From NCBI GenBank assembly GCA_043821445.1, contig JBDRCT010000049.1, forward strand, positions 3,872-67,871: a DNA stretch of 64,000 nucleotides. The letters run 5' to 3'. Under the pieces are notes generated by a model. The model had not been told where the DNA came from. It made no database searches and saw only the letters and a program-made list of their open reading frames with translations. Below, one piece after another: positions 34,718-54,567 of the stretch (position 1 is its first letter; each line of letters starts with the position of its first letter). This DNA is from Candidatus Omnitrophota bacterium. GTDB lineage: Bacteria; Omnitrophota; Omnitrophia; Omnitrophales; Aquincolibacteriaceae. The position numbers and the translations under genes are program-made.

Positions 34718-35222
34718 GACGGGCTTGTTTCAGTGCTGGCGTCACCTAGGGGATTACCAGGCTCCATTGTGACTGAAGACATTATACACCAGTTTTCCTC
34801 AAAAGGGTTATTTATTCCACGCTCTCTATTTTCTGAAGCAGATGAAAGCGCGTCCCACCCGGCGGGGAGTGCGGAACTGGAAACGGTGAACGAAAAAATG
34901 ATTTTAATGGGTCTGTACTCTCCATTCCCCGTCTTTAAGCGATCAATTCCGTGATCTGTATCGGTGCTCTGATAGCTTTCCTCTATTTGCAAAGCATACC
35001 GTGCTTAAAATTGCTATATCCTGCAACGAATAGGAGGAATATTTCGCGGCATTTTACGGCATTTAATTTTCCACAAAAAAACGAAGAAAAATCATGCCTA
35101 ACCCTTGTAATATCAACATCTGTCAGTTATATTTTTTGTAACTTTTTAAAGACGCGGTATAGAACGATAAAATCTTTTTGGAAATAAGGGGATAGAAGTC
35201 CCTTGATCGAAAGGACCACGGA

Positions 35223-38200
35223 GTGAACCACTCTCGGTTATTTAAAACGCTCATTGCGCTTTTCACCGTTGTCACGTTTTCAACGACAAGCGTGATCTGG
35301 GCTCCGGACAGTTTTGCCGTGGCACAAGCGATCCGTGTTCCGGCTCCTGTTGCTCCCGAAGTTCCCATCCCTTATCAGGCCAAGCTTGATCCCGGCATTC
35401 AATTTTCAATCCCTCAGGAACTTGGGACGCTTCAATATTTCAAGGCCGGCAAAGGCCCGATGGTCGTTCATCTCCAGACCGCGCACGGTCATTATCAAGC
35501 ACAGCAACGGATCAGGGCGCTTCTGCATCATTTGGACAAACAGTATGGTATCAAAACACTCCTCGTAGAAGGCAGCGCGTTCAAGCTCGATCCCTCGATC
35601 CTGAATTTCTTTCCGAAAGATCCCAAGCTCACGCAAAAGGTCAATGACGCGCTCACGAAGCAAGCGCTTGTGAAAGGGCCGGAGCTTTATTTATTGGATG
35701 AGTTAAACGGTAAAACGAGTCCTGCGCCGCAAGCATTCGGCATCGAAAACCTTGAAGCGTACCGCGAAAACGGCCTGTCGTTCATCGATGTCCTGAAAGA
35801 AAAAAAGAAAACGGAGAAATTCCTCGCCTCCATGAACGAAGGGATCGAGCGTCTTTCCGCGGCGTACCTCAATGACGCGCTGAGGAATTATCTGAAGCAG
35901 CTTGAAGGTTTTGAAAAGAACCAGCTCCCGCTTGATGCGTGGCTATCCCTTCTGAAAAAAGAAGCGCTGAAGCGGCTGAAGCTCGATCTGACACAGCCGG
36001 GTTCCCAGCTCGACTGGCCGATGCTCGTTCGCGTTTTTAAGGTGCAGGAGCTTTCTTCAAAATTCGATAAAGATGCGTTCATGAAGGAGCGGACGGAATT
36101 TCTTAAAGTTCTGAAGCGCTTTCTTCCATCATCCTATGCTCAGATCGAGCAACTGCTCGAATCGGAACAGGCCAGCCGGCAATTACCTGCTCCCGAAACA
36201 GGCCTGCTTTTCGAGAACATGGTCAAGGCCCTGCCGCGCGATTTCAATTACGAGGCCTACCCGGACGTTTGTTATTTCGTTGGGCGTCTGCTTCTTCAAA
36301 GCGAATTGAAAGCACCGGAATTGATGCAAGAGGCCGAGAAGCTTTCCTCGAAAGTCGCGGACAAACTTGCCAAGACGCAGGCCGAAAAAAATCTCGTGGC
36401 ACTTCTGAAAGATTACCGGCTGTTGCAGAAGTTGTTCGCGCTAGAGCTCACTCCCGCTGATTATGATCAAATTCTTGGAGCGCGGAAGGCGGATGGTGGA
36501 GGACGATTGAAGCCTTCCAATCTTGTTAAGCAATTGAACGGCGCCATCCTCCATCCTTCATCCGGTATCCAAAGAGTTAAAGACGTTAAATTTACCCACA
36601 TCGCCGAACTTAATCAGTTATTCGACGCGGCCATGAAATTTTACGCCGGAGTGAAAGAGCGCGACGGTTTGATGGAGCAGATGATCGAAAAACGCCTCCG
36701 AGAGACCGGCGCCGGCAAAGTAGCGGTCATTACCGGCGGTTTCCACTCCGAACCATTCAAAAATTATTTTTCGTCGAAGGATTATTCGTACGCTCTTATC
36801 TCGCCGCGGATCACGGAAAGCGATGAAATAGGACATCAGGCGTATGTGGAGAATATGCTGAACTTTGCGCAACATTTACAGCGCAACGCGTCCGCCACAA
36901 TGCGTCGGTCGGATCCGTCCTCCGGCGGACAACGCGCAACGCGCAACGTAAGCAATTCTGCGTTGAGCGCGAGCGAGGCGACAAGAGAACTCGAATTCCT
37001 TTCTGACCCGCAAGTCTTGGTAGGTGATTACGGCATCAACGCCGCCGCCGTGCGCATCGAAGTCCGCAAGATCGTCTCCACCGTCGCCGGAAGGACGGCG
37101 CTGTTACAGACTATAGACCGCAGCCTACAGCCTACAGCAAAAGCTTTGGGTCCTCAGTCCCCGGATTCTGTTCTTCCGTCTGAAAAATCCCGCTCCGAGG
37201 CGAGAGCTGAGAAAAAGCCCGTAACGATTTCACGGAGGTTAATTGTTCTGTGGGGGACCGCAGCGGCAGTGGGCGGTCTATTGGCTATGGCATGCAGGTC
37301 GATTGCTGCACCGAGCGAAGTCAAGCTGGCTGTCAGCATTTCGTCTGCTCCAAACCTCACCCCGGCCGATCTTACCGGGTTTCCCGAAGCACCCAATCTT
37401 TTTACAACGATCTTTAACCCGGGCAGAGCCACGGTGCAGATCCTGGGGGATGATCAGGGACGAGGCATGCACTTTGCTTTTAATACGGGAACCGATGGTT
37501 ATGTGGGTGCAGGACTCGAGTTTTTTTTACCGGGAGTTAAAGATTCGGCAAATTTAAGTTCCTTGAATGAATTGCGTTTTGAGCTTCACGGGAATGTTCC
37601 GGGTGGCAAGGTCAAAATGGATGTCATCGATGCCGATGGCAAGAAGGTTACTGTTTACTTAACCGGTATTTCCACAACGGAAGGAAGAATCTGGCAAATT
37701 CCGGTATCGATCCTTCAGGGCGTTAATATGGTCCGGATCCGCGACATTAATTTTGTGGCGGAAGGACCTCAGAACTTTAGCGGAGAACTCCACGTTAAGT
37801 ACAATAAACCCTCCGCAAGCCGTTCGGAAATGCGCGGGGAGGAACGATTCACGAAAGAACAAATCCAGTCAGCGCTGAAGGATTTTCAACCAACGTGGCT
37901 CGATTATGCGTTTGTCGAGACCGGCGCAAAGCGCAGGATTGACGCCGCCAACTTTCTCGGGGAAACCAAAGACCCTCGCGTTGCTGACGCGTTGATCAAT
38001 GTTTTGAAAAGTGATAAGCATCCCGGTGTTCGAGTCGCGGTCGCCAAAGCTCTCGGCAAAATTACAGATCCCCGTGTTTTTCCGGCACTGAGAGATGTTT
38101 TTGGGAAAGAAAAAAATGACGATGTGTGGTTCACGATCGCGGGAGTCCTTTGGGAGGCAGAAGACCCGTGGATCCACACACGGATGGCCGCTGCTCTCGC

Positions 38201-41200
38201 GGATCATTCCCCCTTTGTCCGGAAAATGGCCGTCCAGTTTTTTGGGGCGAATCATGTAGCCAGTGCCATTTCCATGTTGCGGAATGCTTTAAATGATGAT
38301 TCCGAAGATGTAAGAACAGCTGCCGCGGCGGCTCTCGAATGGATCACGACCACATCGCTAGCAGAGATTTCCCGCTCGGAAATGCGAGAGGTGACAAAAC
38401 CATTGGCCGAGGCGGTTGCCGGGAGGATCCGTTATGCCGCAGCTTTGGGGAAGCCCGGTTCCGGGAAGGGAACCTTACTACAGCGATTTGTTGCGGAACT
38501 GAACCGTCATCTTGACAAAAACCATCCGTACGTGATCTTAAGCACCGGAGATGTTTTTCGGGCGATCGCGGAAAAAGTTGCCGCGAAGAAAGAAGGAAGA
38601 GTCCCGGACCTCCAAAAGGTAGGGATCTTTGAGAGCTTTACCGTCCCGGATTCCGTCATCAGCGCGATGCAGGAAGGGAAAATCATCTCAGATGAGATCA
38701 CGATCGATCTCGTCAATGAAGTTTTACGGCTGGATTTCTTCAAAAAAGCCCGCGGTATTTTCTTTGACGGTTTTCCGCGGTCCGCCGGGCAATTGGCGGC
38801 ATTAGAGCAAGGCAAGATAGGGATCGGGGATAAGCCGCTGGTCATGGATTTTAATTTTATTTTGGACATCGAAGATCAAACCGTGTACAAGCGCGCCGCC
38901 AGCCGTGTTGCCGAAGAAAAACTTGCCGCTGTTCGCGAAAAAAGAGAACCCAAGATCCGCAAGGATGACCTTCCTGAAAGGGTGAAGACGCGGATCGAGG
39001 ATTATGAGTCGGTCACGAGCCCGGCGGTCGAAACGAAGCGCGGTCAACCCGATACCCTCACAATCAATGCCAACGTGAAGCCGATCGACGGCGTTTATGA
39101 AGATTTCCTCCAAGGACTTGACGCGTGGATCGCAATGCACCCCCCTCGCTCGGAAGCGCGGTTCACAGCTGGGGAAGAGGGGATCGTCCGTCGGGCAATG
39201 AAAGATTTGGAGATGGGTTGGTTTGATTCTTTTTTTGAACGCGAGATCGCGACGCCGCGGCGCGTGGCCGCCGTTCAAAGCCTTGATGCGATCAGAGCAT
39301 CTCTGAGGGTTTCCATATTAAGGGATCTTTTGGCGAAAGAGAAAAATGGCGATGTATGGTACGCGATGGCATCCGCTCTTTGGCAAGCAGGGGACCCGTG
39401 GATCCGCCAGCGGACGGTCGCCGCTCTCGGGGAGGACTCCTCCTCTATACGCCAAATGGCCGCCCAACTTCTTGGGGAGAATCATGAAACAAGCGCTTTT
39501 TCCGCGTTGACGGCGGCCTTGAATGATCCTGATGAAAGTGTGCGGGAAGCCGCCTCGGAGGCTCTCGAATGGATCATGACCACATCGCCGGTACTGGCGG
39601 CCCGCTCAGAAGTGAGGGCGAAACTTCAGTCGCCTTTTTTTACATTATCCGGCGAACGAAAGATTGGTGAATCGATCCGCATGGAGAGGATGTGGCCTGA
39701 GATTCATGAAATGAAGATCTTGATCTCACTCCATCGGGGGAAAAACGGGAAATTGCTATTAGATCTATGGACACATACTCCGGTAATTGCCGGGAAGATC
39801 CACACGGATGCGGTCAATTGGGAACTGGACGGTCCCGAGGAGGAGATCCTCGCGGTTTTTCAACGTCTCCGGGAACCCGCGGTACAGCAGCCGTTGCGTG
39901 AAGCCATTGAGCGAGATCTAGAACCAGGTGATTTTTATTCAGAAAATGAAAGGTTTGAAACGAAGCTTACTCCGTGGGTCGAGAAGCTTTTAAATGGGGA
40001 GATCGTTTCCGTCGTTACGGGGCAATCAGATCTCAGTCAGCAGCCTCCAGCAGAAGCTGCCGCGAGAGTTTTAGCCGAAAGCCGCTCCGAGATGAGGCTG
40101 ATGCCGCTGCTGGCGCTTGCGGACGGGAGTGGGCTTGCCGGCGTGATCAGCCAACTGCGTCAAGCCTGGCACGAAAACGCTCTTGTGATCGTTGCGGTCG
40201 GCCTGGGTCTTTGTGAAATAGGTTATTGGGCCTATAGAACGTGGCAGTTAAGGAAAAAGCTTAGCCACTTTCCCAATGCCGTGAAAAGAGTGAAGGATGC
40301 GGTTAGGAGGTTTGCTGAAAAGACAGAAGAGGACGAACGGCGTTCGTCTGCGAATGATCTCGAATCCATTTATGTCGACGGATTTTTGACGCGTATTCTA
40401 TGGCGCAATATTCCGGATTCAAAACTTTTACAGATCGAACAAGAAATCAAAGAAGGTCGGGATCCGGTCCTTCAATTAGTGCCTGACGGGAATGAAGTTC
40501 TAATGGAATGGACGAGACAAGTTCTTGAACTCCGCTCTTCGGCCTATTTTCCGAGTGGCGGCGAGGATCAATACGTCTCATCAGAACCCCAGGGATGGTA
40601 CGGGTCGATTGAAGTCACCGCCGGCGAGCAGTCCCGCTCGGAAGCAAGAGGAACGCCGAAAGGAGGCGATTGGGAAGCCGCGGCGCGGGCCAGGGTATCA
40701 GAAATACAACGAAAAGAGCAAGAGGAGGAGGCCCGGGCGTTGGCTAAGATGGAAGGAGAGCGAGAGGCGATTCGGAGCATGACAACGCCACAGCTTCTTG
40801 CGCTGAAGGAAAGAGAAGTCATGGCGTTCAGCGCGGCACAGATCCAGGCGTTGACGCCTGCGCAGCTTCGTGTGCTGGAAGGGACAGATCAGGAGAAGTG
40901 GCTGAATGCCCGAGCTAATGAATTGCTGGCACAGCAAGCAAAGATTATGAAAAAGTCCCGCTCGGAAGTGAGGGTTTTTGGAAATGATAGGTTCATACCG
41001 CTCATGCGGGCAACGGTACTGTCACTCGCGATAGCAGGCCTCTCGGGATGCGCTCCAGTAATTGCAGGAATTAAAACTATGCCTTTACCTCAAGGCGAGG
41101 AATTGGGTATTCCGTCGCCCCTAACCATTGAAGAATTTCAGGAAGCAATAAACAATATGTTTGATCCCGATTCACCCACTCCACCGGATCTCAGTCTGGC

Positions 41201-47200: not shown

Positions 47201-50200
47201 GGATATTTTATCTGCGGGTGATAAGGCGGATCCGATCTATCAGGAGGCGTTGGCCGCTCTCAAGGACGCCGAAGAAAGCGGCAAGACGAGGGATATCCTT
47301 GCGGCACTCAGGAAGATCGAGAAGTTGGGCGGTTTTGACCCGCTCCAGATCAAGATGGGAGCGAAAGGAACAGACCTGGGACGCATAGAACAGATCCGTG
47401 ATCATGAGCTCTTCGTCGGAGATGCGGAGGCCCGGTTGCTTTTCATGATAGATCTCGGGCGGAGCGGACAATTCGATAGGGTCGCGTTCCAGCCTCTTGT
47501 GAATGATCCATCGAAGGCCTCTTATATCACATTACTGAAGAAGCCCTGCCTCTGGGACCTTGTTGAGGGACGCCCCCAGCCCAGATCCTATTGGACGGCG
47601 CTCTTGGACGCCGGGGTCAAGGTCATGACAATGGTCGAACAGAAAGAGCTTCCGAAATTTGAGATCGCATTGGGCGAGATCGTTGGATTTCCAACGGCCG
47701 ATGCGAAGGATGCTCGTAAGAGGCAGCCGGGCGGTCATGGGCAGTTAGGGGTCTATTTTGTGGTGGATTTTACGGAAAATGCCCCGGCGAAAGACGGGCG
47801 GCACCATATCCGCTTTTTCGGGAACGGGGACAACCGAAAGGGAAATCCGGAGGCGATCGTGGCCGGGTTCGCGATCGTTGAAAGATTGCCGATCATAAAG
47901 ATCACGACCGCCGCCACCGCGATCGATAAAAAAGGCGGCAAGGAAGTGGTCCGCATCATTCAAAAGCTGGTCCGGGGAGTCAAAAAAATCTTTAATGTTC
48001 TTGATCAATGGGAAGAAATCGATGCCATCAATGCGGGCCAGGAAAAGATCTTTTACGCTGCGGGACAGCGGCACGGTTTTGGCCAGGAAGGCAGGCAGCT
48101 TTTCAATACGAATCTGTTCTATTTTAATATCGATATGCTCCACTCGATCCTGGTCGAGATGCGCCGGATCACGGGAGATGGTGAATTTTTGGACGGGATC
48201 ATGCCCTTCTTATTCGACAAGAGCGCCAAGGCGCAGGAAATTGACGGCAAAAAATACGTTTCGATGGATTCGGCGATCGGGTATGTGGTTCATAAGCTGA
48301 ACACCTTTTACACGACGGATCCCCGCTTTGAATCTCTGAGACAAGAGTACGGTCCCCAGCTTCTCTACTATATAAACTATGGCCGTGATATTTTTGCGCC
48401 CAAGAAAAAAGCAGAGGACCAGTATCTACAAGAAGGAACGGACTATTACGGCCCATTCGATGAAACCATCAAGAATTTCCGCGACGCGGTACCGGGGCTT
48501 ACACCTCCCGGATTCAGTCTTACGGATCCTTTTGAAAAGGACGGAAGTGCCGTGGACAAGAATGGAAATCCTATTGATTCCAAGTTCTGGACCGAAGCCC
48601 AGCATTGGCTGGATTCCTTGGGACTTTCGCGCGTTCGACGAATGACCTCACTGAAGGTGGAGGGCCGCGTGACGCTTCGAAATGCGGAATATATCGGCGA
48701 CGTGGAGATCATCAACCGGTATGGTCGCAAAGACAAATCGAATCGGGCCCAGAGAGTTGTTTTAAGCAGCGGCCAGTACCTTGAGCAGCTCAAAGCGCGC
48801 GGTTTTTGGGCCGATGATCACTTGGTGCTCGAGGATCTCCGCATCACGATCGACGAAGATGGCCGGTTGCTTACGATGGCGATTTCAATGGCCCATACTC
48901 CGGAAGGCGCTTTGAGGATCCGTGATACAGAAGAGGCCATAAAGCTATTTGATGAGTTAGGGGCCCGGGGAGCCAATGTTCGTGTCGGACGCGGTTTCAC
49001 GGTCGAAAGAGGCGGAGAACTCATCATTGATCCCAGGGATTTCGGTCCAGGTGTGGATTTCTTCGTCGAGTCCAACGTGGTGATCGCCAGTGGCGTTACG
49101 ATCAACCTGCAGCTTGACGGGAAAAATCACGTGATAATCGATAGCGGAACTGTTTTTTCCGGTCCGTCCGGGCTCAGACTTGATCTGGTGCTTCAAGAAG
49201 GCGAGTGGCTCCACATTGGTAAGGGTGCTTTACAGGATGTGATCGCCGGGCTAGCGTCGGAAGAAACCCCGAGAGGGAAAACGATGACGCTCTTTCTTCA
49301 TTACCGAGAGCTTGTTAAAGCGGATGAGCTCGAAAGGGCGTTTTCTATCCGTAAGATCATAAACTCATTGGTATCCTACCCTGTGGGGGATGCCGGGATA
49401 TTCCGGAACGCTCAATGGGTAAAGAATCTGATCGACGAATTTGAGAGGACGCCTGGCCACCACTCCCGTTCTGAAGTACGGGGAGCGCTGGGGTGGTTCG
49501 AGAACGGGAGAGTACTGACCTATGAAAGAATGATCGCGGAAAGAAAAAAGGAGATCGATAAGCTCCGGCGGAGCATTACGGATGCCAAAACGCCTGAAGC
49601 GAGACGGCTGGTCCCCGGCTACGAAGCCAGGGTTCGTGACGCCCAGGGAGCTATTACCGGTTATCAGAGGCAATTATTTGCCGCCGCGATTCCCGAACCA
49701 GAAATTCTGGCGCGACTTTTGGCCGTCGTCCCGCCGCAAACACTCTACGATATCTATCAGGCTGCCAGGGCGGTTCTGCCGTTCGATGGGGCCATTCAGC
49801 CGCGGGATATGCTTCGCTTTTTCTATGGGGTGCCGTCTCAGGGTCAGGGCCCGACGATGCAGAACTATGTTTCAGCGATCGGAAATTTTCTCATGGAAAG
49901 ACAGGAAGCGCTGGTGCCTGCTTCGGCCGACGCAAGATCTTTGGAGATGCCGCAAATCCCGCGTGAACCCTTTATTCGTTTCTATCCATTACAACTCGTG
50001 GCTCTGATACAAATGGCTCGTGGGTTCTCACGCGAAACGCTCCTTGAGATGCTCCGCGTTCAAACCGTTCCTGCGGCGGAGCAAGAAAGTTCTCAGGTAG
50101 GGACCGTGAACGGCGCAAAAACAGAGCTCTTTGCTCGTCCGGCGAATGACCAAGTACTGTTTCTCGCTGTTTTTCTCAAGAACTTATTGGCTGCGGTTGA

Positions 50201-52631
50201 CCAGAAGGCGGCAGCTCCCAATACTCAGAAATTGATCGCGGAGGCGGAAACACTCAAGGATGTTTTTGCCTCTTTGCTTGCCAGGGAACCACGGCTTTTG
50301 AAAGCTCAACCTCAACCGGTGGGAGTCTTGAGGAGCGAAGTAAGGTTCCAGGTGACGCCTGTCCGGGAAGTGCCAGGACAAGAAAAGACGTTCGGAGTGG
50401 CTATTTCCAATGGGAGCGGTAGCCATGCCGGTCATTTTACGGCTGCGATTCCACAAAAGGCGGCTGAAAGGACCTATGAGATCCTTTTTCCGGACGAGGG
50501 GAAGGGTTCGAGCCAGGCACAATTCACGGTGATGGTCGATGACCAGGGGATTTTTAGGAATGTCAGCGACATCCGGGTCGTAACACCGGTGGCTAAAAGC
50601 CTTGCGGTGGCATCTCGTGTAAACCTCGGAGGCAAAAAAACCACCGCGGAGCGTTTCGAAAAAATCAAAGGTTCCATAGAAGACTTCTTAAGATCAAAGA
50701 TCGGACAGCCCTGGGGTCCGGAAATTTTTCGTACGTCTGCGGTGCCGGCTGTTCAAGAACAGGGCGCCTCCGGCGCGGTCACCGCGGCTAACGTGTCTAC
50801 GGTACGGAGTGAAATTCGGGGCGATGAACGCCGGGTCGCGGAGCTCCGGGGTGAAATGGTGGATGAACCTCTTGACGGTAAACCCGAGATCGTGTGGTCT
50901 GAAGAAGTACTCGCCAGATACGGTGGTGTTTCGTCGGCAGTTGCTCAGGGGCTGAAGTACTGGACGCGCGTTCTGTATACTCGCTGGCCGGCGGACGTGG
51001 AACGGGCCAAAACTCTGGGTGATACGCACCGAAGGAACCAAATGACTTATGAGTTGGCGGTCGCCGCGAATCTTCTGAAGAAAATGGCCACCGACTTAAC
51101 AAATGAGCAGATCAGCAAACTCACGGCCCTGGATTTTACGCAAGTGGTCTCAATTCTTGAAACCGCTATTGCAGACGGAGAGGCGCTTCAAAAAGCCGGT
51201 AGAGAATCCCGCCCTGAGGGGAGTTATGAACAGTTAAAAACCCTCAAGGAATCTCCTGACTTGCTCAGGATCGTTTTAAATAAATTGAAAAGCACTTACG
51301 AGATGGAAGCTCAGAAAGGTCGGGATGTGCGTCAGGCCCAAGGACTCATGACATCCGGCGCGGCTCCGGAGACCAGCGGTTCTATGGCAAATCTTGTTCC
51401 GGTCGCGGAAGAGCTTTTGGGGCAGGCAGGCTTGAAATTTAGCGCTGCGGAGGTCGGAAAACTTAGACCGACCCAAATCAGGGAGTTGATCGGATTTCTC
51501 AGGGCCGTTGCGCACAGCCGGGCGATCGGTTCTTCCGAAGGGGCGGCGCAGTTTGGGCCGCTCGAAAATGTTCCCGCGCCGGTTGCAGAGATCCTGGCGG
51601 AACTGCAAAGGATCCAGCAGGCCGGGGTTTCGGAAACACAGACGCCGCCGTCCGTGACTCCGGAGCCGGGCCGTTCTGAACTGAGGCTTTCGAATTTCAA
51701 TGGTGTCATCACACCCGAAGAGATCACGTTGATCGAACATTTTTATTTCAACCTTCTTCCGATGCAACTTCGCGAGTTGATCGAGGCAGCCGGAGGCCGG
51801 AAGGCCGTTCTCGAAGCACTACGGAAAATTTCAGGCATCACCGTGAGCGAGGCGGTCGTGGATATTCCGGACACTGACGTTCTCGATAAATTGTTTGCTC
51901 CCGAGGCGTCTCTTGCGATCCCGGAAGCAGCCGGCAGGGGATTGGCAGTTACAAAGACCGTGACGTCGACGGTCAAAGATCTCGGAGGCAAGGTTTTCCT
52001 CGGGCAGGACATTCTGGCAAAGCTCACCGCAGAGAATCCCCGGGCCCTTTTCTATCTTTTGAAAACCTATGCGGCTTTTACGGAACAAAATGAGCCACCG
52101 GTTCTTTTGACCGTCGGGTCACGGCAAGTCCTCCTCAAGCAGATCGAGAATGCTTTAGTCAACAAGAGTTCCGGCCTTGTGGGACTCGAGATCGTGGAAC
52201 GTAGCGCGTTGCTTCAGGCTCTTAAGCAGGAAAAGATCCTTGATGTGATCGAGCCTGCGCAGGGAACGAGCGAAGCGCAGATCATCAACGAACTTGCGGT
52301 CACGGCCCAGGGCGGGATCGCGTCGCTTCATCTGAGTGCGGACATGCTGCCGGGCTCATTACAGGGTGTTCACTTTGCATTCGGCGCAAAGAACATCGGG
52401 GCCCGCGATCTCATGGTGGCTTCCGTGCTCGCGATCGTTCTCAAATCCGTGGCAGACCTCATTCATAATGTTCCGGACGCAAAGATCAGGGCCGGGCTTC
52501 TCGGTAAATTCGTGGCAGAGAACTTGCCGGGCGTCAACGCTCAGGCACAAGGGAATTCTTTTGTGATCACCCAGATCACGAAGCTTGCCCAAGAATTTGC
52601 AGCCCGGGCCTACATCGCAACACGAGCTTAA
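35223..52631 (+). CDS. giant multidomain secreted/membrane protein (5802 aa), mosaic of nucleotide-kinase-like, sugar-nucleotidyltransferase-like, HEAT-repeat and TM modules separated by RSE[AVMIL]R motifs
   Basis: 17.4 kb frame without stop; GTG start 7 nt after AAGGA RBS; N-terminal signal peptide 'MNHSRLFKTLIALFTVVTFSTTSVIWA'; synonymous variation in repeated motifs argues for protein-level selection. Confidence 0.8.
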   Translation: MNHSRLFKTLIALFTVVTFSTTSVIWAPDSFAVAQAIRVPAPVAPEVPIPYQAKLDPGIQFSIPQELGTLQYFKAGKGPMVVHLQTAHGHYQAQQRIRALLHHLDKQYGIKTLLVEGSAFKLDPSILNFFPKDPKLTQKVNDALTKQALVKGPELYLLDELNGKTSPAPQAFGIENLEAYRENGLSFIDVLKEKKKTEKFLASMNEGIERLSAAYLNDALRNYLKQLEGFEKNQLPLDAWLSLLKKEALKRLKLDLTQPGSQLDWPMLVRVFKVQELSSKFDKDAFMKERTEFLKVLKRFLPSSYAQIEQLLESEQASRQLPAPETGLLFENMVKALPRDFNYEAYPDVCYFVGRLLLQSELKAPELMQEAEKLSSKVADKLAKTQAEKNLVALLKDYRLLQKLFALELTPADYDQILGARKADGGGRLKPSNLVKQLNGAILHPSSGIQRVKDVKFTHIAELNQLFDAAMKFYAGVKERDGLMEQMIEKRLRETGAGKVAVITGGFHSEPFKNYFSSKDYSYALISPRITESDEIGHQAYVENMLNFAQHLQRNASATMRRSDPSSGGQRATRNVSNSALSASEATRELEFLSDPQVLVGDYGINAAAVRIEVRKIVSTVAGRTALLQTIDRSLQPTAKALGPQSPDSVLPSEKSRSEARAEKKPVTISRRLIVLWGTAAAVGGLLAMACRSIAAPSEVKLAVSISSAPNLTPADLTGFPEAPNLFTTIFNPGRATVQILGDDQGRGMHFAFNTGTDGYVGAGLEFFLPGVKDSANLSSLNELRFELHGNVPGGKVKMDVIDADGKKVTVYLTGISTTEGRIWQIPVSILQGVNMVRIRDINFVAEGPQNFSGELHVKYNKPSASRSEMRGEERFTKEQIQSALKDFQPTWLDYAFVETGAKRRIDAANFLGETKDPRVADALINVLKSDKHPGVRVAVAKALGKITDPRVFPALRDVFGKEKNDDVWFTIAGVLWEAEDPWIHTRMAAALADHSPFVRKMAVQFFGANHVASAISMLRNALNDDSEDVRTAAAAALEWITTTSLAEISRSEMREVTKPLAEAVAGRIRYAAALGKPGSGKGTLLQRFVAELNRHLDKNHPYVILSTGDVFRAIAEKVAAKKEGRVPDLQKVGIFESFTVPDSVISAMQEGKIISDEITIDLVNEVLRLDFFKKARGIFFDGFPRSAGQLAALEQGKIGIGDKPLVMDFNFILDIEDQTVYKRAASRVAEEKLAAVREKREPKIRKDDLPERVKTRIEDYESVTSPAVETKRGQPDTLTINANVKPIDGVYEDFLQGLDAWIAMHPPRSEARFTAGEEGIVRRAMKDLEMGWFDSFFEREIATPRRVAAVQSLDAIRASLRVSILRDLLAKEKNGDVWYAMASALWQAGDPWIRQRTVAALGEDSSSIRQMAAQLLGENHETSAFSALTAALNDPDESVREAASEALEWIMTTSPVLAARSEVRAKLQSPFFTLSGERKIGESIRMERMWPEIHEMKILISLHRGKNGKLLLDLWTHTPVIAGKIHTDAVNWELDGPEEEILAVFQRLREPAVQQPLREAIERDLEPGDFYSENERFETKLTPWVEKLLNGEIVSVVTGQSDLSQQPPAEAAARVLAESRSEMRLMPLLALADGSGLAGVISQLRQAWHENALVIVAVGLGLCEIGYWAYRTWQLRKKLSHFPNAVKRVKDAVRRFAEKTEEDERRSSANDLESIYVDGFLTRILWRNIPDSKLLQIEQEIKEGRDPVLQLVPDGNEVLMEWTRQVLELRSSAYFPSGGEDQYVSSEPQGWYGSIEVTAGEQSRSEARGTPKGGDWEAAARARVSEIQRKEQEEEARALAKMEGEREAIRSMTTPQLLALKEREVMAFSAAQIQALTPAQLRVLEGTDQEKWLNARANELLAQQAKIMKKSRSEVRVFGNDRFIPLMRATVLSLAIAGLSGCAPVIAGIKTMPLPQGEELGIPSPLTIEEFQEAINNMFDPDSPTPPDLSLATFREWQRDAKYMEAFTRKYLRALGYQIRSEDWLRGFAIWYAAPDHGDRPYWEYQEEIYERLGEWEANGYIIRFSVPIFPFGRSEVRNTSVQAEQPKHPMFITLEVNKDLQGLDFGDVEKAIASGKMAIAEVSVDWARKIKETYPNDVYTIFITPLSENQIRERMQETGQTRDAVIFEEMSRRQKERALEKPTPEEKQLSRAKGAVIEMARQNEYNAVIVSNELKDLERDDVRWAGDEGAAVVEQFMAAVDAARKAGKKLILYSGPSATGKSPLWNQIQKKHGDQFSRIVLYTTRGLRPGEKDGVDFHFRSVNDLQNLMNEKNGRSEARASEETPADRLISGRKFTVIDVAENPYAIKVISDPDYKSLILYGFSNAARALGDLVVPFFITNKLSVTIDGISQDSTVILQKKVMPASDQFQTYLENNDLPKAIELLKKMVEIDQEIMRRGYILTDFKVENFGITADGNVLLLDPTGVVDGLGRTQPPEDFYHYYNQNNFLFVKSGSYHRFYDDYKNNKHAKELFQAFRDLTGVDFTGILQTTKMNVMIALALSESFDPDNPFSKHVQHARHYLEGLTPFAALSQQLKEPVAMPAIQVEAESSLRGFLGHEQRREFNLQDLSIWNEEKAINIHVPLQETKLVTIESRSEVRDTQTTPSRSAARQTAQIGRTWKDLFKENFNWGIEEGLITAGFSIGLYAGLFGLPFLMPLGLNPAHTALIGTLLGGALYPAVVAVRAKWLQAAKTEDAGGFDVKTFVDTLLEASREARSLFDSEQLDLANNIESIVFPRIRARKLTYAQRAAAKAELNGRLQRVKEEIAQMETSGNLSGNSQSVLNARLREIENSSSDFEAALTFRSEIRQILEALRKEKHVAGVISTFIFGLAGFLFGIYQGISFFSRSNIRPYSTDDVFWMAIFVLLGGELLGVAGGIIGLAVYGVVYAGFSIVRLVVHAFWSVAGSVRRSGYRAGRGLAGEERTTGHAPKRSEVKVTEREFQRALKDLETDWFDTFFIKNATQRRVGAIKVLGESKDPRAVPALTGLLKDAAVRSSAAETLTSIRSSVPALQAEAGFTTEEAGIFRRAIEDLKFQWTDLFLFERETRRRVGAVKSLGAIQNPALILELYSLLVKEEKEKWVKTDEWFAIAGVLLRKGETRILETVFDSLTDDIPVVRKRAADFLGENHVVSAVPALTLALKDSFVKFAAAAAIEKITGTPPFKKKGAFEFFGVNPVVLPRTTFFASGGLGFLFELKLISPFVKPGDPLGKIAGLLLLSLGSIIGSYILISIVQNRIVGLDRLGRPLVKKEKASARSEARNLALSVPAGLLEKASDWLHSPWGIVDWIVGGVLFGMAAAFAFATLLVALYTIASIWTSFQKSAIRSLEEKEGFAAIEFLRGLLQKTRGFSYLIFSDVYNETELAAIAALTHLNDSFLTGFLTSGEGFNRYLRASDEVKAAVDRWSPEAFSAQILRNLSSNDLSPAQLIEKREDLAGLGILRPFLVAAFSHSDPKIQRMGLEILAGYEFFTFGRVPTDHEIFDPVIREALEPFLQKAISQTSDDDLFDKTAMIMIRQGRSGEIVPGALQRMSAGNPDHFPLLVKELATAEYLDATLFHPDLKIRALGLKAIEDTGTVAAQDQYAEKYQEQLIPLLQDPDNDVCSGAAILLTVVGHGKSVLQAAASRNWNELPELVNYFDLHWKEAVELAGPESLPLLKLLIDRRKAWAYADDPIDGVDAAILGKSQAGLKFDRSHIIAKKTEELRELKAAVDRLSARSEVRHLRRLGAPDRDIGDIVETVRESLDGAVTDDESLWAAQQRMGDLPDLLKGPRTERELGIEIGESWKIPNVHYQSRRSEARSEIRERLAPVFRAFGIDESSGKTEIEKTKNQADRWYVEGMTRQHVHPRGTGTDGADDKDGPYAPLHIRNEKGSLSEVSHTGNAVVTAMMEDQELQSVGVYQRAFLDHHPREREYLEAAAKTNLIWNTLDGGIGESLMREAWLLNKGLRSRLKDILSAGDKADPIYQEALAALKDAEESGKTRDILAALRKIEKLGGFDPLQIKMGAKGTDLGRIEQIRDHELFVGDAEARLLFMIDLGRSGQFDRVAFQPLVNDPSKASYITLLKKPCLWDLVEGRPQPRSYWTALLDAGVKVMTMVEQKELPKFEIALGEIVGFPTADAKDARKRQPGGHGQLGVYFVVDFTENAPAKDGRHHIRFFGNGDNRKGNPEAIVAGFAIVERLPIIKITTAATAIDKKGGKEVVRIIQKLVRGVKKIFNVLDQWEEIDAINAGQEKIFYAAGQRHGFGQEGRQLFNTNLFYFNIDMLHSILVEMRRITGDGEFLDGIMPFLFDKSAKAQEIDGKKYVSMDSAIGYVVHKLNTFYTTDPRFESLRQEYGPQLLYYINYGRDIFAPKKKAEDQYLQEGTDYYGPFDETIKNFRDAVPGLTPPGFSLTDPFEKDGSAVDKNGNPIDSKFWTEAQHWLDSLGLSRVRRMTSLKVEGRVTLRNAEYIGDVEIINRYGRKDKSNRAQRVVLSSGQYLEQLKARGFWADDHLVLEDLRITIDEDGRLLTMAISMAHTPEGALRIRDTEEAIKLFDELGARGANVRVGRGFTVERGGELIIDPRDFGPGVDFFVESNVVIASGVTINLQLDGKNHVIIDSGTVFSGPSGLRLDLVLQEGEWLHIGKGALQDVIAGLASEETPRGKTMTLFLHYRELVKADELERAFSIRKIINSLVSYPVGDAGIFRNAQWVKNLIDEFERTPGHHSRSEVRGALGWFENGRVLTYERMIAERKKEIDKLRRSITDAKTPEARRLVPGYEARVRDAQGAITGYQRQLFAAAIPEPEILARLLAVVPPQTLYDIYQAARAVLPFDGAIQPRDMLRFFYGVPSQGQGPTMQNYVSAIGNFLMERQEALVPASADARSLEMPQIPREPFIRFYPLQLVALIQMARGFSRETLLEMLRVQTVPAAEQESSQVGTVNGAKTELFARPANDQVLFLAVFLKNLLAAVDQKAAAPNTQKLIAEAETLKDVFASLLAREPRLLKAQPQPVGVLRSEVRFQVTPVREVPGQEKTFGVAISNGSGSHAGHFTAAIPQKAAERTYEILFPDEGKGSSQAQFTVMVDDQGIFRNVSDIRVVTPVAKSLAVASRVNLGGKKTTAERFEKIKGSIEDFLRSKIGQPWGPEIFRTSAVPAVQEQGASGAVTAANVSTVRSEIRGDERRVAELRGEMVDEPLDGKPEIVWSEEVLARYGGVSSAVAQGLKYWTRVLYTRWPADVERAKTLGDTHRRNQMTYELAVAANLLKKMATDLTNEQISKLTALDFTQVVSILETAIADGEALQKAGRESRPEGSYEQLKTLKESPDLLRIVLNKLKSTYEMEAQKGRDVRQAQGLMTSGAAPETSGSMANLVPVAEELLGQAGLKFSAAEVGKLRPTQIRELIGFLRAVAHSRAIGSSEGAAQFGPLENVPAPVAEILAELQRIQQAGVSETQTPPSVTPEPGRSELRLSNFNGVITPEEITLIEHFYFNLLPMQLRELIEAAGGRKAVLEALRKISGITVSEAVVDIPDTDVLDKLFAPEASLAIPEAAGRGLAVTKTVTSTVKDLGGKVFLGQDILAKLTAENPRALFYLLKTYAAFTEQNEPPVLLTVGSRQVLLKQIENALVNKSSGLVGLEIVERSALLQALKQEKILDVIEPAQGTSEAQIINELAVTAQGGIASLHLSADMLPGSLQGVHFAFGAKNIGARDLMVASVLAIVLKSVADLIHNVPDAKIRAGLLGKFVAENLPGVNAQAQGNSFVITQITKLAQEFAARAYIATRA
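35440..36850 (+). other. giant ORF module: TraB/GumN/PrgY(TIKI)-like domain (tentative)
   Basis: 'MVVHLQTAHGHYQ...LLVEGS' N-motif and 'VAVITGGFHSEP' C-motif resemble TraB-family GxxH signatures. Confidence 0.3.
36880..36980. repeat. in-frame copy of the REP-like element (CAGCGCAACG...CAACGCGCAACGCGCAACGT..CGTTGAGCG) inside giant ORF
   Basis: matches intergenic copies at 3678/57892/59032/59952; translates as low-complexity 'QRNASATMRRSDPSSGGQRATRNVSNSALSA'. Confidence 0.5.
37206..37820 (+). other. giant ORF module: Tat/Sec-like internal signal ('SRRLIVLWGTAAAVGGLLAMA') + beta-sandwich domain
   Basis: hydrophobic h-region with AxA site directly after RSEAR motif 1. Confidence 0.4.
37850..38372 (+). 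other. giant ORF module: HEAT/PBS-lyase-like repeat block 1
   Basis: 'DPRVADALINVLKSDKHPGVRVAVAKALGKITDPRVFPAL' repeats ending '...ALEWITTTS..SRSEMR'. Confidence 0.6.
38440..39130 (+). other. giant ORF module: adenylate kinase-like domain
   Basis: 'GKPGSGKGT' P-loop, 'ILSTGDVFRA', 'FFDGFPRSAGQ' (DGFPRT motif) and LID region. Confidence 0.65.
39170..39602 (+). other. giant ORF module: HEAT repeat block 2 (paralog of block 1)
   Basis: 'KNGDVWYAMASALWQAGDPWIRQRTVAALGEDSSSIRQMAAQLLGENHETSAFSALTAALNDPDESVREAASEALEWIMTTS' closely parallels block 1. Confidence 0.6.
41004..41051 (+). other. giant ORF: internal Met + lipoprotein signal peptide with lipobox (MRATVLSLAIAGLSGC)
   Basis: n-h-LSGC pattern 10 codons after RSEVR motif 8. 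Confidence 0.5.
41520..42170 (+). other. giant ORF module: circularly permuted guanylate kinase-like domain
   Basis: C-terminal GK half first ('VYTIFITPLSENQIRERMQETGQTRD...EYNAVIVSNELKD') then N-terminal half ('LILYSGPSATGKSPL...VLYTTRGLRPGEKDGVDFHF'). Confidence 0.6.
42250..42800 (+). other. giant ORF module: eukaryotic-like kinase (ELK) fold
   Basis: 'YILTDFKVENFGI' (D-x4-N catalytic loop) and 'LLLDPTG' (DFG-like). Confidence 0.45.
44160..44830 (+). other. giant ORF module: HEAT repeat block 3
   Basis: 'FQRALKDLETDWFDTFF...RRVGAIKVLGESKDPRAVPAL' parallels blocks 1-2. Confidence 0.55.
47000..49300 (+). other. giant ORF module: UDP-glucose pyrophosphorylase (UDPGP family)-like domain with C-terminal left-handed beta-helix
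   Basis: 'NTLDGGIGESL' (LNGGLGTSMG-like) and 'QPGGHGQL' (PGHGD-like) motifs; hexapeptide-like repeats downstream. Confidence 0.45.
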
Positions 52632-53768: not shown

Positions 53769-53809
53769 CTTCTCCCGCGACGCCTCTGGCAGAACTCTCC
53801 GGACTCCCG

Positions 53810-54556: not shown

Positions 54557-54567
54557 TATAACAACTG

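What the first reader, a model, noticed from the sequence alone, without database searches (positions are those of the whole stretch)
35223..52631. Giant 5802-aa ORF encoding a secreted/membrane mosaic of enzyme-like modules
A single 17.4 kb frame (GTG start, RBS AAGGA, signal peptide) has no stop codon, and chance cannot explain an open frame of that length. Read across, it concatenates modules that normally exist as separate small proteins. These are a TraB/GumN-like domain, an adenylate kinase, a circularly permuted guanylate kinase, an ELK-fold kinase, a UDPGP-family nucleotidyltransferase, three paralogous HEAT blocks and more than 10 TM segments. Giant genes have been noted in Omnitrophota-like ultra-small bacteria but remain functionally undescribed. 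The combination of nucleotide-handling enzymes on a secreted scaffold suggests a host/partner-interaction or nucleotide-scavenging surface machine.
Basis: partly seen in the sequence, partly recalled or inferred. Interest (0 to 1): 0.92.

Follow-up and report, generated by a model that had tools for sequence, protein, structure and literature searches.

The report
Cassette polyprotein-like giant gene, Omnitrophota
The 5802-residue gene is real and belongs to a very large Omnitrophota family in which unrelated enzyme cassettes are strung between a conserved head and tail domain and separated by one strict five-residue peptide (Arg-Ser-Glu-x-Arg), which suggests, but does not prove, that these "giant proteins" are cut into many ordinary proteins.

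Summary
These are a Tiki/TraB-like N-domain, adenylate kinase, circularly permuted guanylate kinase, HEAT blocks, a UDPGP-like module and about 12 TM-like segments. The kinase-fold call is only weakly supported.

R-S-E-[VLAMI]-R occurs 21 times in the ORF (0.23 expected by chance) and sits at every module junction.

The gene belongs to a family of at least 4349 protein clusters, and every identifiable relative is from Omnitrophota. Members share the N-terminal hydrolase-like cap and, where the C-terminus is complete, a last module ending in -[S/A]-A. Between these lie shuffled cassettes of cytoplasmic-type enzymes delimited by R-[S/A/P]-E-x-R (951 copies in 424 kaa, 31 expected).

Three observations point to a co-evolving reader:
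- Homology blocks start at the motif.
- Sec and lipoprotein signal peptides start directly after it, three times more often than at random positions.
- The residue after the motif is small, and rarely Pro or aromatic.
- The motif variant switches in concert within a protein.

My best reading is a bacterial polyprotein cleaved after the last Arg (confidence about 0.5). The protease is unknown and no cleavage has been shown. An unexplained codon bias at the first Arg keeps a translational mechanism open.

The parts
35211..35215 (+). Shine-Dalgarno-like AAGGA, 7 nt before the GTG start
   Evidence: Read from the sequence
35223..52631 (+). The giant ORF, 5802 aa plus stop
   Evidence: Homologues match along its whole length in the same frame.
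35247..35303 (+). N-terminal hydrophobic helix (aa 9-27), either a signal peptide or a signal anchor. Basic residues lie on its N side.
   Evidence: The pattern is conserved in the family.
35400..36902 (+). N-cap (aa ~60-560): Tiki/TraB/EreA/ChaN-like hydrolase fold with a large helical insert. H88, E116, E175, R480 and GGFH508 are invariant.
36903..37190 (+). Low-confidence linker between the N-cap and the first junction motif
   Evidence: pLDDT <50 from aa 556 onward. In the family the first motif lies a median 117 aa after GGFH.
37191..37820 (+). Cassette 2 (aa 657-866). RSEAR, then a signal-like segment (AEKKPVTISRR + LIVLWGTAAAVGGLLAMA), then a beta-rich domain.
   Evidence: Weak CBM_11 hit, E=0.14. 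Conserved in P0003.
37821..38372 (+). Cassette 3 (aa 867-1050). RSEMR, then HEAT repeats.
   Evidence: HEAT_2 8.7e-22. Homologous cassettes in other family ORFs also begin at their motif.
38373..39146 (+). Cassette 4 (aa 1051-1308). RSEMR, then a complete adenylate kinase with P-loop GKPGSGKGT.
   Evidence: PF00406 65.7 bits. TIGR01351 1.6e-23. 84% identical cassette at a different position in L001, with homology starting right after the motif's last Arg.
39147..39602 (+). Cassette 5 (aa 1309-1460). RSEAR, then HEAT repeats.
39603..40082 (+). Cassette 6 (aa 1461-1620). RSEVR, then a domain of unknown function.
   Evidence: no family hit
40083..40634 (+). Cassette 7 (aa 1621-1804). RSEMR, then a TM segment at aa 1652-1670, then a soluble part.
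40635..40958 (+). Cassette 8 (aa 1805-1912). RSEAR, then a helical/coiled region.
40959..41444 (+). Cassette 9 (aa 1913-2074). RSEVR followed directly by a lipoprotein-type signal peptide (VFGNDRFIPLMRATVLSLAIAGLSG|C).
   Evidence: 70% identical cassette in L001.
41445..42170 (+). Cassette 10 (aa 2075-2316). RSEVR, then a circularly permuted guanylate kinase.
   Evidence: 67% identical cassette in L018.
42171..43130 (+). Cassette 11 (aa 2317-2636). RSEAR, then a possible protein-kinase-like fold (DFKVEN ... DPTG).
   Evidence: PIP49_C E=0.004, below cut-off. No PDB match. Inconclusive.
43131..43757 (+). Cassette 12 (aa 2637-2845). RSEVR, then two TM-like segments.
   Evidence: 73% identical cassette in L001.
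43758..44141 (+). Cassette 13 (aa 2846-2973). RSEIR, then TM-like segments starting 10 aa after the motif.
44142..45113 (+). Cassette 14 (aa 2974-3297). RSEVK (variant with Lys), then two HEAT blocks and a C-terminal TM-like segment.
45114..46493 (+). Cassette 15 (aa 3298-3757). RSEAR, then a TM-like segment and a HEAT/ARM-like helical domain.
46494..46742 (+). Cassette 16 (aa 3758-3840). RSEVR, then a short segment that ends in a doubled motif, RSEAR-SEIR (46731-46757).
46743..49466 (+). Cassette 18 (aa 3841-4748). RSEIR, then a UDPGP-like nucleotidyltransferase (LDGGIGES) and a C-terminal beta-rich region.
   Evidence: No direct Pfam or PDB hit. Homologues P0015 and P0016 carry PF01704. The same cassette in L006, L031 and L003 starts at their motif.
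49467..50330 (+). Cassette 19 (aa 4749-5036). RSEVR, then a domain of unknown function.
50331..50804 (+). Cassette 20 (aa 5037-5194). RSEVR, then a domain of unknown function.
50805..51671 (+). Cassette 21 (aa 5195-5483). RSEIR, then a domain of unknown function.
51672..52628 (+). C-cap (aa 5484-5802). RSELR, then the family's conserved last module.
   Evidence: Homologous to the C-termini of L020, L023, P0003, P0004 and P0008 and 32 of 140 representatives. AF2 failed, pLDDT 37.
52611..52628 (+). C-terminal tail YIATRA. The family pattern is hydrophobic-x-x-[S/A]-A-COOH.
   Evidence: 82 of 140 representatives end in [SA]A.

Best explanation
**Shown.** The ORF is one member of a very large Omnitrophota family of cassette genes. 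Each gene starts with a Tiki/TraB-like hydrolase domain (the N-cap). Where the C-terminus is intact, it ends with a conserved last module whose tail is -[S/A]-A. In between lies a variable, shuffled series of unrelated cassettes: enzymes, HEAT blocks and membrane or exported modules. Every cassette boundary carries the peptide [small]-R-[S>A>P]-E-[V/L/A/M/I]-R-[small].

**Inferred.** This peptide is the recognition site of one reader that co-evolves with it, most likely an endoprotease cutting after the last Arg. The gene would then be a polyprotein, in effect an operon without stop codons. Cytoplasmic cassettes (ADK, GK, the UDPGP-like module) would be released as ordinary soluble proteins. 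Cassettes that begin with a Sec or lipoprotein signal peptide would be exported individually and trimmed by signal peptidase I or II. This is the same logic as a flavivirus polyprotein.

**Not known.** The identity and location of the protease. The N-cap is the only hydrolase-like module present in all members, which makes it the obvious candidate, but it appears to be exported, which does not fit cytoplasmic cutting.
For: **Motif frequency.**
- 21 RSEx[R/K] in this ORF against 0.23 expected (maximum 3 in 2000 shuffles). Only one other copy occurs in all six frames of the window.
- 389 copies in 193 kaa of 80 related ORFs, against 0.18 per kaa in other ORFs, and most of those others lie in tandem family genes.
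- RSE.R: 384 observed against 4.5 expected. It is the only recurrent short motif outside the N-cap.
- Replicated on 140 independent representatives: 951 R[SAP]ExR against 31 expected.

**Selection acts on the peptide.** Synonymous codons vary, both Ser codon classes occur, and x is defined by hydrophobicity rather than by codon.

**The motif bounds evolutionary units.**
- 40% of inter-ORF homology blocks start within 5 aa of a motif, against 2% at random; 22% end there.
- Cassette order differs from the closest relative.
- Homology of the ADK cassette starts exactly after the last Arg.

**Cassettes behave like separate pre-proteins.**
- A TM or signal-like segment starts within 40 aa after 10% of motifs, against 3% of random positions (p=2e-10 and p=3e-24 in two data sets). 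There is no such enrichment before motifs.
- Textbook lipoprotein and Sec signal peptides follow the motif directly.
- The first TM after a motif is N-in 41 times and N-out 14 times. TM pairs separated by a motif keep the same orientation 24 times and alternate 11 times.

**Protease-site-like flanks.** Position +1 is S/T/N/G/A-rich (44% small residues against 27% background, p=2e-16) and depleted in Pro (0.25x), Phe (0.22x) and Tyr (0.15x).

**One common reader.** Variants are homogeneous within a protein (A17/19, A15/21, P10/10, and [L/R/F]SDSR x11 in L046), and the switches are scattered over the N-cap tree. The last Arg is the only residue kept in all variants.

**Cargo is cytoplasmic biochemistry.** This includes enzymes that I know to be oligomeric (GDH, UGDH) and DNA-binding regulators.

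**Median motif spacing is 181 aa**, the size of a domain or small protein.
Against: - No cleavage product has been observed. All of the evidence is sequence statistics.
- No recognisable protease other than the N-cap was found in this ORF or in 12 relatives. By the positive-inside rule the N-cap is exported, and so on the wrong side of the membrane for most junctions.
- The first Arg shows a strong codon constraint (CGY 84% against 43% expected; AGR 7 against 98), while the second Arg does not. A simple protease site does not predict this.
- Only about 10% of motifs are followed by a signal or TM segment. The TM-orientation test is marginal (Fisher p=0.08) and rests on a crude hydropathy method.
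- If the N-terminal helix is not a TM segment, a self-consistent single-chain topology can be drawn for the first three TMs.
- The motif is not avoided inside the folded N-cap (10 observed, 6.3 expected).
- Some family members have few or no motifs (L075, L068).
Confidence: 0.5

Rival explanations
1. **Single-chain scaffold.** The 5802-aa product stays intact as a membrane-anchored multi-enzyme protein. R-S-E-x-R is then a short linear motif in the inter-domain linkers. It could be a docking site for a partner such as the HEAT modules or a chaperone, or a topogenic or linker element. It would not be a cleavage site.
For: - This is the reading in the literature (10.1101/2023.11.21.568195; 10.64898/2026.06.07.730766).
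- Short linear motifs also sit in linkers and co-evolve with their reader, which would explain.
- No protease has been identified.
- One alternating topology satisfies the positive-inside rule for TMs 673, 1652 and 1924, provided the N-terminal helix is not membrane-spanning.
Against: - It places ADK, GK and the kinase-like module, and in relatives GDH, hexokinase and HTH regulators, outside the cell, or else it breaks the positive-inside rule. The authors of 10.1101/2023.11.21.568195 themselves call some of their predicted localisations 'highly unlikely'.
- It does not explain why complete Sec and lipoprotein signal peptides with a lipobox begin right after the motif.
- It does not explain why position +1 avoids Pro and aromatic residues.
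- It does not explain why cassette order is free.
Confidence: 0.28
2. **Ribosome-level separation.** The motif acts during translation as a 2A-like 'stop-go' or release-and-continue event that depends on particular codons or tRNAs. Cassettes would then be released without any protease.
For: - The codon-specific constraint on the first Arg (CGY 84% against 43% expected) and on Ser (TCN 94% against 68%), and the G-ending codon at x, are not predicted by a protease site.
- It would work on both membrane sides and would explain why no protease is found.
- It fits the appearance of new N-termini directly before signal peptides.
Against: - To my knowledge no such mechanism is known in bacteria.
- The motif is only five residues with no conserved upstream peptide.
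- AGR, AGY and other codons do occur at functional-looking sites in this ORF.
- The variants RAExR, RPExR and LSDSR are hard to reconcile with a fixed tRNA requirement.
Confidence: 0.08
3. **DNA-level cassette boundary.** The 15-nt unit is the footprint or target of a recombination mechanism that shuffles cassettes, and the peptide is a by-product of that.
For: - Cassettes are shuffled, with break-points at the motif.
- There is partial nucleotide conservation, CGY-TCN-GAR.
Against: - Conservation follows amino-acid classes: x is hydrophobic with many codons, the last Arg uses all six codons, and both Ser classes occur.
- Positions -1 and +1 show amino-acid preferences.
- There is no nucleotide conservation outside the motif, no palindrome correlation, and no recombinase in the neighbourhood.
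- Eight conserved bases are too few to drive homologous exchange.
Confidence: 0.07
4. **Assembly chimera or pseudogene.** The long frame would be an artefact of the assembly.
For: None was found. The window is of unknown origin, and the exact TrpRS neighbour is not on record.
Against: - There are 5802 sense codons.
- Relatives in at least 80 independent MAG contigs and thousands of protein clusters have the same head, cassettes and tail architecture, with lengths of up to 7.8 kaa among the best 150 representatives.
- The flanks are ordinary housekeeping genes.
Confidence: 0.02

Closest known systems
Omnitrophota giant multi-enzyme ORFs ('Archaeovorins', West-Roberts et al. 2023 bioRxiv 10.1101/2023.11.21.568195; 'multi-enzyme metabolic cluster' class in 10.64898/2026.06.07.730766; giant ORFs in Seymour et al. 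2023, PMC10066038)
   Same: Same phylum. Same mosaic of HEAT repeats, small-molecule enzymes and TM helices in one frame. N-terminal signal-like segment. Post-translational cleavage has been speculated.
   Different: This ORF is 5.8 kaa, far below their threshold of more than 30 kaa. It has no glycosyltransferase, NUDIX, C39, S8 or SecA-like domains. None of the three papers I searched mentions a junction motif, the Tiki-like N-cap or the -[SA]A tail. One states that cleavage points are unknown, and another discards internal signal-peptide calls as artefacts. I could not test whether the type Archaeovorin carries the motif.
Flavivirus-type viral polyproteins (own knowledge)
   Same: One ORF encodes many mature proteins. 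There are short basic cleavage sites with a small P1' residue on the cytosolic side. Internal signal peptides directly after such sites are then cut by host signal peptidase. The site co-evolves with its protease.
   Different: This is a cellular, chromosomal gene in a bacterium. The cargo is metabolic enzymes. The motif, R-x-E-x-R, is different. No chymotrypsin-like protease is encoded. Cleavage is not demonstrated.
MARTX toxins (own knowledge)
   Same: Conserved N- and C-terminal regions frame a variable, recombining array of unrelated effector cassettes that are released by proteolysis at inter-cassette sites.
Tiki/TraB/PrgY/GumN - EreA/B - ChaN - HopBA1 superfamily (for the N-cap)
   Different: There is no Pfam hit for this sequence. 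It carries a ~300-aa helical insertion. It always sits at the N-terminus of cassette proteins. Its activity and substrate are unknown.
Processed bacterial surface polyproteins: gingipain/adhesin precursors of Porphyromonas, and P97/P102 adhesins of Mycoplasma hyopneumoniae cut at S/T-X-F|X-D/E (own knowledge)
   Same: These are large bacterial precursors cut at short recurring motifs into several functional pieces. In gingipains the cut is after Arg or Lys.
   Different: Those are extracellular adhesin or protease complexes with a few pieces. They are not 20 or more unrelated cytoplasmic enzymes plus exported modules in free order.

Membership tests
Omnitrophota N-cap cassette family (defined here) | N-terminal Tiki-like cap with HxQTAHG / EGS / ERDxxM / GGFH | tested here: met
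   100 genomic relatives. 4349 clusters at E<=1e-30, with the cap always at the N-terminus among the best 150.
Omnitrophota N-cap cassette family (defined here) | Multiple R-[SAP]-E-x-R junction motifs | tested here: met
   21 copies including one RSEVK. Family density is 2.0-2.2 per kaa against about 0.07 expected.
Omnitrophota N-cap cassette family (defined here) | Last module (C-cap) ending in hydrophobic-x-x-[S/A]-A-COOH | tested here: met
   The ORF ends in YIATRA. The C-cap is homologous to L020, L023 and P0003.
Archaeovorin-type giant proteins (West-Roberts 2023) | Gene longer than 90 kb (more than 30 kaa) | tested here: not met
   17.4 kb
Archaeovorin-type giant proteins (West-Roberts 2023) | Omnitrophota origin, with HEAT repeats, enzymes and TM helices in one ORF | tested here: met
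Archaeovorin-type giant proteins (West-Roberts 2023) | Glycosyltransferases, glycosyl hydrolases, peptidases, SAM methylases and NUDIX consistently present | tested here: not met
   None detected by Pfam or NCBIfam in this ORF
Tiki/TraB/EreA/ChaN superfamily (N-cap) | Alpha/beta fold shared with solved members | tested here: met
Tiki/TraB/EreA/ChaN superfamily (N-cap) | Sequence-model match (Pfam TraB_PrgY_gumN, Cofac_haem_bdg, Erythro_esteras) | tested here: inconclusive
   No hit for the window sequence. 4 of 47 relatives hit ChaN (best E=0.0016) and 3 hit Erythro_esteras, all below cut-off.
Tiki/TraB/EreA/ChaN superfamily (N-cap) | Hydrolase or protease activity | not testable with these tools
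   Only the conservation of His/Glu/Arg/His is shown
Adenylate kinase | Pfam ADK above the gathering score, with P-loop and LID motifs | tested here: met
   65.7 bits against 26.8. GKPGSGKGT, GFPRS and RKDD read from the sequence. Below the NCBIfam equivalog cut-offs.
Guanylate kinase | Pfam Guanylate_kin above the gathering score | tested here: met
   66.7 bits against 25.2
Guanylate kinase | Canonical linear order of the P-loop half and the GMP/lid half | tested here: not met
   The order is reversed, a circular permutation. It is conserved in L018.
UDPGP nucleotidyltransferase (PF01704) | Model match | tested here: inconclusive
   No direct hit. Homologues at 32% identity over 76-79% of the cassette carry PF01704.
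Protein-kinase-like fold | Model or structure match | tested here: inconclusive
   PIP49_C 17 bits against a cut-off of 25.2. No PDB sequence match.
Polyprotein (viral type) | Conserved recognition motif at every junction between functional units | tested here: met
Polyprotein (viral type) | Cognate protease encoded in the polyprotein | tested here: inconclusive
   The only candidate is the N-cap. No other peptidase family was found.
Polyprotein (viral type) | Mature products observed | not testable with these tools
   No proteomic data were accessible. Tryptic data cannot reveal cuts after Arg.
MARTX toxin | RTX/glycine-rich repeats and a CPD autoprotease | tested here: not met
   No such Pfam hits

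The most novel reading that the evidence does not exclude
Many of the multi-enzyme 'giant proteins' of Omnitrophota, at least the thousands that carry the Tiki-like N-cap, would not be giant working proteins. They would be cellular polyproteins: stop-codon-free operons whose cassettes are separated at R-[S/A/P]-E-x-R by a dedicated, co-evolving reader, and then sorted one by one through their own Sec or lipoprotein signals. That mode of gene expression is known from RNA viruses but not from bacterial chromosomes at this scale.
Probability: 0.45. Interest if true: 0.9.

Novelty: new variant of a known kind. Interest (0 to 1): 0.8.

Why it matters
Giant Omnitrophota genes are currently discussed as the longest proteins in biology and as surface machines for predation. 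The authors of that work state that missing cleavage-site information blocks structural and functional analysis.

A strict, family-wide junction peptide gives exact, testable cut points. It splits each ORF into about 20 tractable units. It also resolves the predicted localisations those authors found implausible, since cytoplasmic enzymes would no longer sit 'outside' the cell.

If cleavage is confirmed, it would establish a polyprotein mode of gene expression in bacteria and define a new protease-substrate or recoding system. It would also change how protein length records and membrane topology predictions for these genes are read.

Even if the chain is not cleaved, the motif, the Tiki-like cap and the -[SA]A tail define a previously undescribed family of at least 4000 clusters.

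Tried and rejected
- **Full-length homologue searches.** Both attempts failed, on the length limit and then on time-out.
- **Literature search for the motif strings.** This was useless because 'rsear' matches 'research'. No paper combines polyprotein or cleavage site with Omnitrophota or Omnitrophica.
- **Internal translation starts at the x codon.** Rejected. x is Ala, Thr or Ser in 28% of sites, and there is no nucleotide conservation (hence no shared SD-like element) upstream of the motif.
- **DNA palindrome YTCNGAR.** Rejected. The third base of Arg1 and the third base of Glu show no correlation.
- **Ser phosphorylation or an N-O acyl shift at Ser.** Rejected. Ser is replaced by Ala or Pro throughout whole proteins.
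- **A conserved neighbouring protease gene.** None found. The neighbours are housekeeping genes and only syntenic.
- **PDB sequence searches with profiles.** The N-cap profile gave only a RelA/SpoT hit caused by the tail of one aligned protein, and the UDPGP-like cassette profile gave nothing.
- **Foldseek of the N-cap against the PDB.** Not significant. The afdb50 library was unavailable.
- **AF2 of the C-cap.** Failed with pLDDT 37, so its fold is unknown.
- **Third homologue search (HEAT-ADK-HEAT).** Returned only generic HEAT proteins and gave no alignment for a junction model.
- **Motif avoidance inside the N-cap.** Not seen.
- **Exact-sequence lookup of the TrpRS neighbour.** Not on record.
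- **L072, the closest relative.** Contains Ns, so its apparent split into ORFs is uninformative.
- **Rfam and the promoter/terminator scan.** Nothing relevant inside the ORF.


Full report
**1. The observation**

The window contains a single ORF at 35223-52631 (+) of 5802 codons with a GTG start. The preceding in-frame stop is at 35193, and AAGGA lies 7 nt upstream of the GTG. Composition is unremarkable, about 52% GC like the flanks.

The flanks are ordinary chromosomal genes:
- DeoC-type aldolase and alcohol dehydrogenase upstream on the other strand.
- TrpRS, ScpA, ScpB, PheA and an aminotransferase downstream.
- GluRS/GlnRS, complex-I/Mrp-like subunits, hydrogenase maturases and PGM further upstream.

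The ORF is therefore real and not a chance frame.

**2.

Confirmed:
- Adenylate kinase: PF00406, 65.7 bits. The P-loop, AMP-binding and LID motifs can be read in the sequence.
- Guanylate kinase with its two halves in reversed order. Residues 2251-2314 match GK positions 2-64, and residues 2097-2170 match positions 75-147.
- HEAT blocks at aa 867-1050, 1309-1460 and 2974-3297.
- About 12 TM-like segments.

Supported indirectly:
- The 908-aa cassette at aa 3841-4748 has no direct hit. Its homologues at 32% identity carry PF01704, the UDPGP family.

Weak:
- The kinase-fold call. The Pfam score is sub-threshold and there is no PDB match.

**3.

Reading the translation shows the peptide R-S-E-x-R at every module junction. 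There are 21 copies (one is RSEVK), against 0.23 expected from shuffles with a maximum of 3. Only one further copy occurs in all six frames of the window, and it lies outside any listed ORF.

The DNA encoding the motif differs among copies. Both Ser codon families and several Arg codons are used, so selection acts on the peptide.

**4. It is a family property**

The N-terminal 866 aa find only Omnitrophota proteins, and many of these carry the motif. A pattern scan of one genome per species found 100 relatives, and the 80 kept are all in Omnitrophota MAGs, often several per genome.

Motif counts across data sets:

| Data set | Observed | Comparison |
|---|---|---|
| 80 related ORFs, RSEx[R/K] | 389 copies in 193 kaa (2.0 per kaa) | 0.18 per kaa in other ORFs of the same loci |
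| 80 related ORFs, RSE.R | 384 | 4.5 expected |
| 140 representatives, R[SAP]ExR | 951 copies in 424 kaa | 31 expected |

Most of the 'other ORF' copies lie in tandem upstream or downstream family genes. RSE.R is the only recurrent short pattern apart from N-cap residues.

An exhaustive HMMER search with the N-cap profile finds 8720 clusters (50% identity) at E<=1e-3 and 4349 at E<=1e-30. Among the best 150 the cap is always at the N-terminus, and lengths reach 7.8 kaa.

Complete members end in a divergent but recognisable last module whose tail is hydrophobic-x-x-[S/A]-A-COOH. The window ORF ends in YIATRA, and 82 of 140 representatives end in [SA]A.

Short members of about 1.1-1.4 kaa (P0003, P0008) consist of little more than cap, one cassette and tail. 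The 5.8-kaa ORF looks like the same frame with about 20 cassettes inserted.

**5. Anatomy of the motif**

- The extended consensus is [S/A/V/P/G]-R-[S>>A>P]-E-[V/L/A/M/I]-R-[S/T/N/G/A].
- K, D or Q at the charged positions are not enriched.
- Position +1 is small in 44% of sites against 27% background (p=2e-16), and is depleted in Pro (0.25x), Phe (0.22x), Tyr (0.15x) and Trp (0.36x).
- Median spacing between motifs is 181 aa, with an interquartile range of 94-343.
- Variants are homogeneous within a protein: RAExR 17/19, 15/21 and 14/18; RPExR 10/10; and [L/R/F]SDSR x11 in L046. Switches from Ser to Ala are scattered over the N-cap tree.
- The last Arg is the only residue retained in every variant.

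Concerted change at 10-20 non-homologous sites in one protein implies a common reader that co-evolves with the sites. It also excludes any mechanism that needs the Ser hydroxyl.

**6. The motif bounds evolutionary units**

- When the ORF is cut at its motifs, cassettes find homologues in other family ORFs whose alignments start at the subject's own motif and end 0-20 aa before the next one.
- Over all ORF pairs, 40% of homology-block starts and 22% of ends lie within 5 aa of a motif, against 2% at random.
- Relative to the closest long relative (L001, N-cap 72% identical), the shared cassettes are in a different order and have very different identities, from 84% for ADK to 31% for others.
- Homology of the ADK cassette begins exactly after the last Arg...SRSEMR|EVTKPLAEAVAG in the window against ...SNPEER|EVTKPLAEAVAG in L001.

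**7. Cassettes behave like separate pre-proteins**

- A TM or signal-like hydrophobic segment begins within 40 aa after 10.0% of motifs, against 3.2% of random positions (p=2e-10). Before motifs there is no enrichment.
- The independent set gives 10.3% against 3.1% (p=3e-24).
- Several of these are textbook signal peptides that start at the motif. In this ORF, RSEVR-VFGNDRFIPLMRATVLSLAIAGLSG|C. Elsewhere, RSELR-GKFAKSIILGIIALAAG|C, RSEVR-TVTLRVLTAAIMGFAFSAIA|EQKP and RSELR-VRSVIQRVTIFAAVAAMAGLVG|C.
- By flanking charge, the first TM after a motif is N-in 41 times and N-out 14 times. Consecutive TMs separated by a motif keep the same orientation 24 times and alternate 11 times. Without a motif between them the split is 8 to 11. 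The contrast is marginal (p=0.08), and the method is a crude hydropathy scan.

For this ORF, a single polytopic chain starting from the N-terminal signal-like helix has two options. It can put the kinases in the cytoplasm at the price of violating the positive-inside rule at TMs 673, 1652 and 1924, which also makes the lipobox meaningless. Or it can obey the charges and put ADK, GK and the kinase-like module outside.

Treating each cassette as its own protein gives a sensible result throughout. The cap, the beta-rich cassette 2 and the lipoprotein cassette 9 are exported, and the enzymes and HEAT blocks are cytoplasmic.

Cassettes in 12 other members include glutamate dehydrogenase, UDP-glucose dehydrogenase, hexokinase, GNAT acetyltransferases, a response regulator and an HTH_8 domain. 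No peptidase family was found.

**8. Interpretation**

Shown:
- The architecture of cap, motif-delimited shuffled cassettes and tail.
- Peptide-level conservation of the motif and its family-wide occurrence.
- The association of the motif with homology boundaries and with downstream signal peptides.
- Variant homogeneity within proteins.

Inferred:
- The motif is a processing site, most simply an endoprotease site with P1 = the last Arg and a small P1' residue. The gene would then be a polyprotein whose exported cassettes are finished by signal peptidases I and II. From my own knowledge, this is the logic of flavivirus polyproteins.

Not resolved:
- Who reads the motif. The N-cap is the only universal hydrolase-like module, and it always comes first, as leader proteases do. 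But its N-terminal helix predicts export.
- A strong codon constraint on the first Arg. CGY is 84% against 43% expected from each ORF's own usage, and AGR occurs 7 times against 98 expected (p about 1e-61). The second Arg is near background, and Ser is TCN in 94% against 68%. A protease site does not explain this, so a translation-level mechanism stays open.
- The role of the -[SA]A tail, which from my own knowledge resembles ssrA or tail-specific-protease recognition tails.

**9. Comparison with what is known**

Giant Omnitrophota ORFs are described in PMC10066038, 10.1101/2023.11.21.568195 and 10.64898/2026.06.07.730766. These papers treat the products as single membrane-anchored chains and speculate about cleavage by C39 or S8 domains. 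One states that cleavage points are unknown and that some predicted localisations are 'highly unlikely'. One explicitly suppresses internal signal-peptide calls.

In those three papers, term searches for words such as motif, cleavage, polyprotein, linker, junction and N-terminal turned up no description of a junction motif, the Tiki-like cap or the conserved tail. No paper in the library pairs 'polyprotein' or 'cleavage site' with Omnitrophota or Omnitrophica. The library is incomplete; Kizina et al. 2022, for example, could not be searched.

The ORF itself is therefore a smaller relative of a known kind. The junction code and the cap-to-tail architecture appear to be new.

**10. Verdict**

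The best explanation is a cassette polyprotein read at R-[S/A/P]-E-x-R (confidence about 0.5). The main rival is an uncleaved scaffold in which the motif is a linker-docking peptide (about 0.28). Interest is high because the motif turns an open question, whether giant bacterial proteins are processed, into a directly testable one with exact coordinates.

Noticed in passing
window 63172-63846 (-), and beyond the 3' end of the window: This is an LpxA-like hexapeptide acyltransferase, 91% identical to the gene that sits just upstream (mostly on the opposite strand) of another N-cap family gene in about 20 related loci. The housekeeping block at 53651-63014 is syntenic with those loci. A second cassette gene therefore probably starts just past the window end.
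   Followed up: partly
family-wide (L001-L080, P0026-P0165); window motif sites such as 37191-37205: The first Arg of the junction motif is encoded by CGY in 84% of sites (43% expected), and AGR is almost absent. The second Arg uses all codons near background. Ser is TCN in 94% of sites. This is unexplained.
   Followed up: yes
window 52611-52628; C-termini of family proteins: There is a conserved C-terminal tail, hydrophobic-x-x-[S/A]-A-COOH, resembling ssrA or tail-specific-protease tails. It is present in 82 of 140 representatives, and 10 more end in -MA. Its role is unknown.
   Followed up: partly
L004, L026, L059, L062, L074 (ORFs upstream of the matched gene): Family genes often lie head-to-tail in tandem. 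The upstream ORFs end in the same -[SA]A tail and carry the motif.
   Followed up: partly
P0016 (1276 aa, source 'lgn'): This is a short relative with an N-cap-like start, the UDPGP-like module and a tail ending in ...EAAAA, but no junction motif. It may be a fused, motif-free form of the system.
   Followed up: no
window 20760-22067 and 22068-23567: A HypC/HupF domain is fused to a radical-SAM + BATS protein and is followed by a second radical-SAM + BATS gene (HydE/HydG-like maturases). They lie downstream of complex-I/Mrp-like membrane subunits at 12500-18178.
   Followed up: no
window 237-1517 and 1988-3676; tRNAs at 3760-3830 (-) and 24475-24556 (+): Two class-Ic aminoacyl-tRNA synthetase genes (GluRS/GlnRS type) lie side by side, and there are two tRNA genes.
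   Followed up: no
L072 (PLLJ01000051), 560-1040: The closest relative of the window ORF (69-90% identical over the N-cap parts held in L072 and L021) has Ns inside the gene. Its apparent split into several ORFs is therefore an assembly artefact and not evidence for separate genes.
   Followed up: yes
L058 aa 2225-2290: Tandem 20-aa repeats each carry RPEAR (…EPVPESTDSGRPEARQALRR… x4). Junction motifs here are multiplied without any cassettes between them.
   Followed up: no
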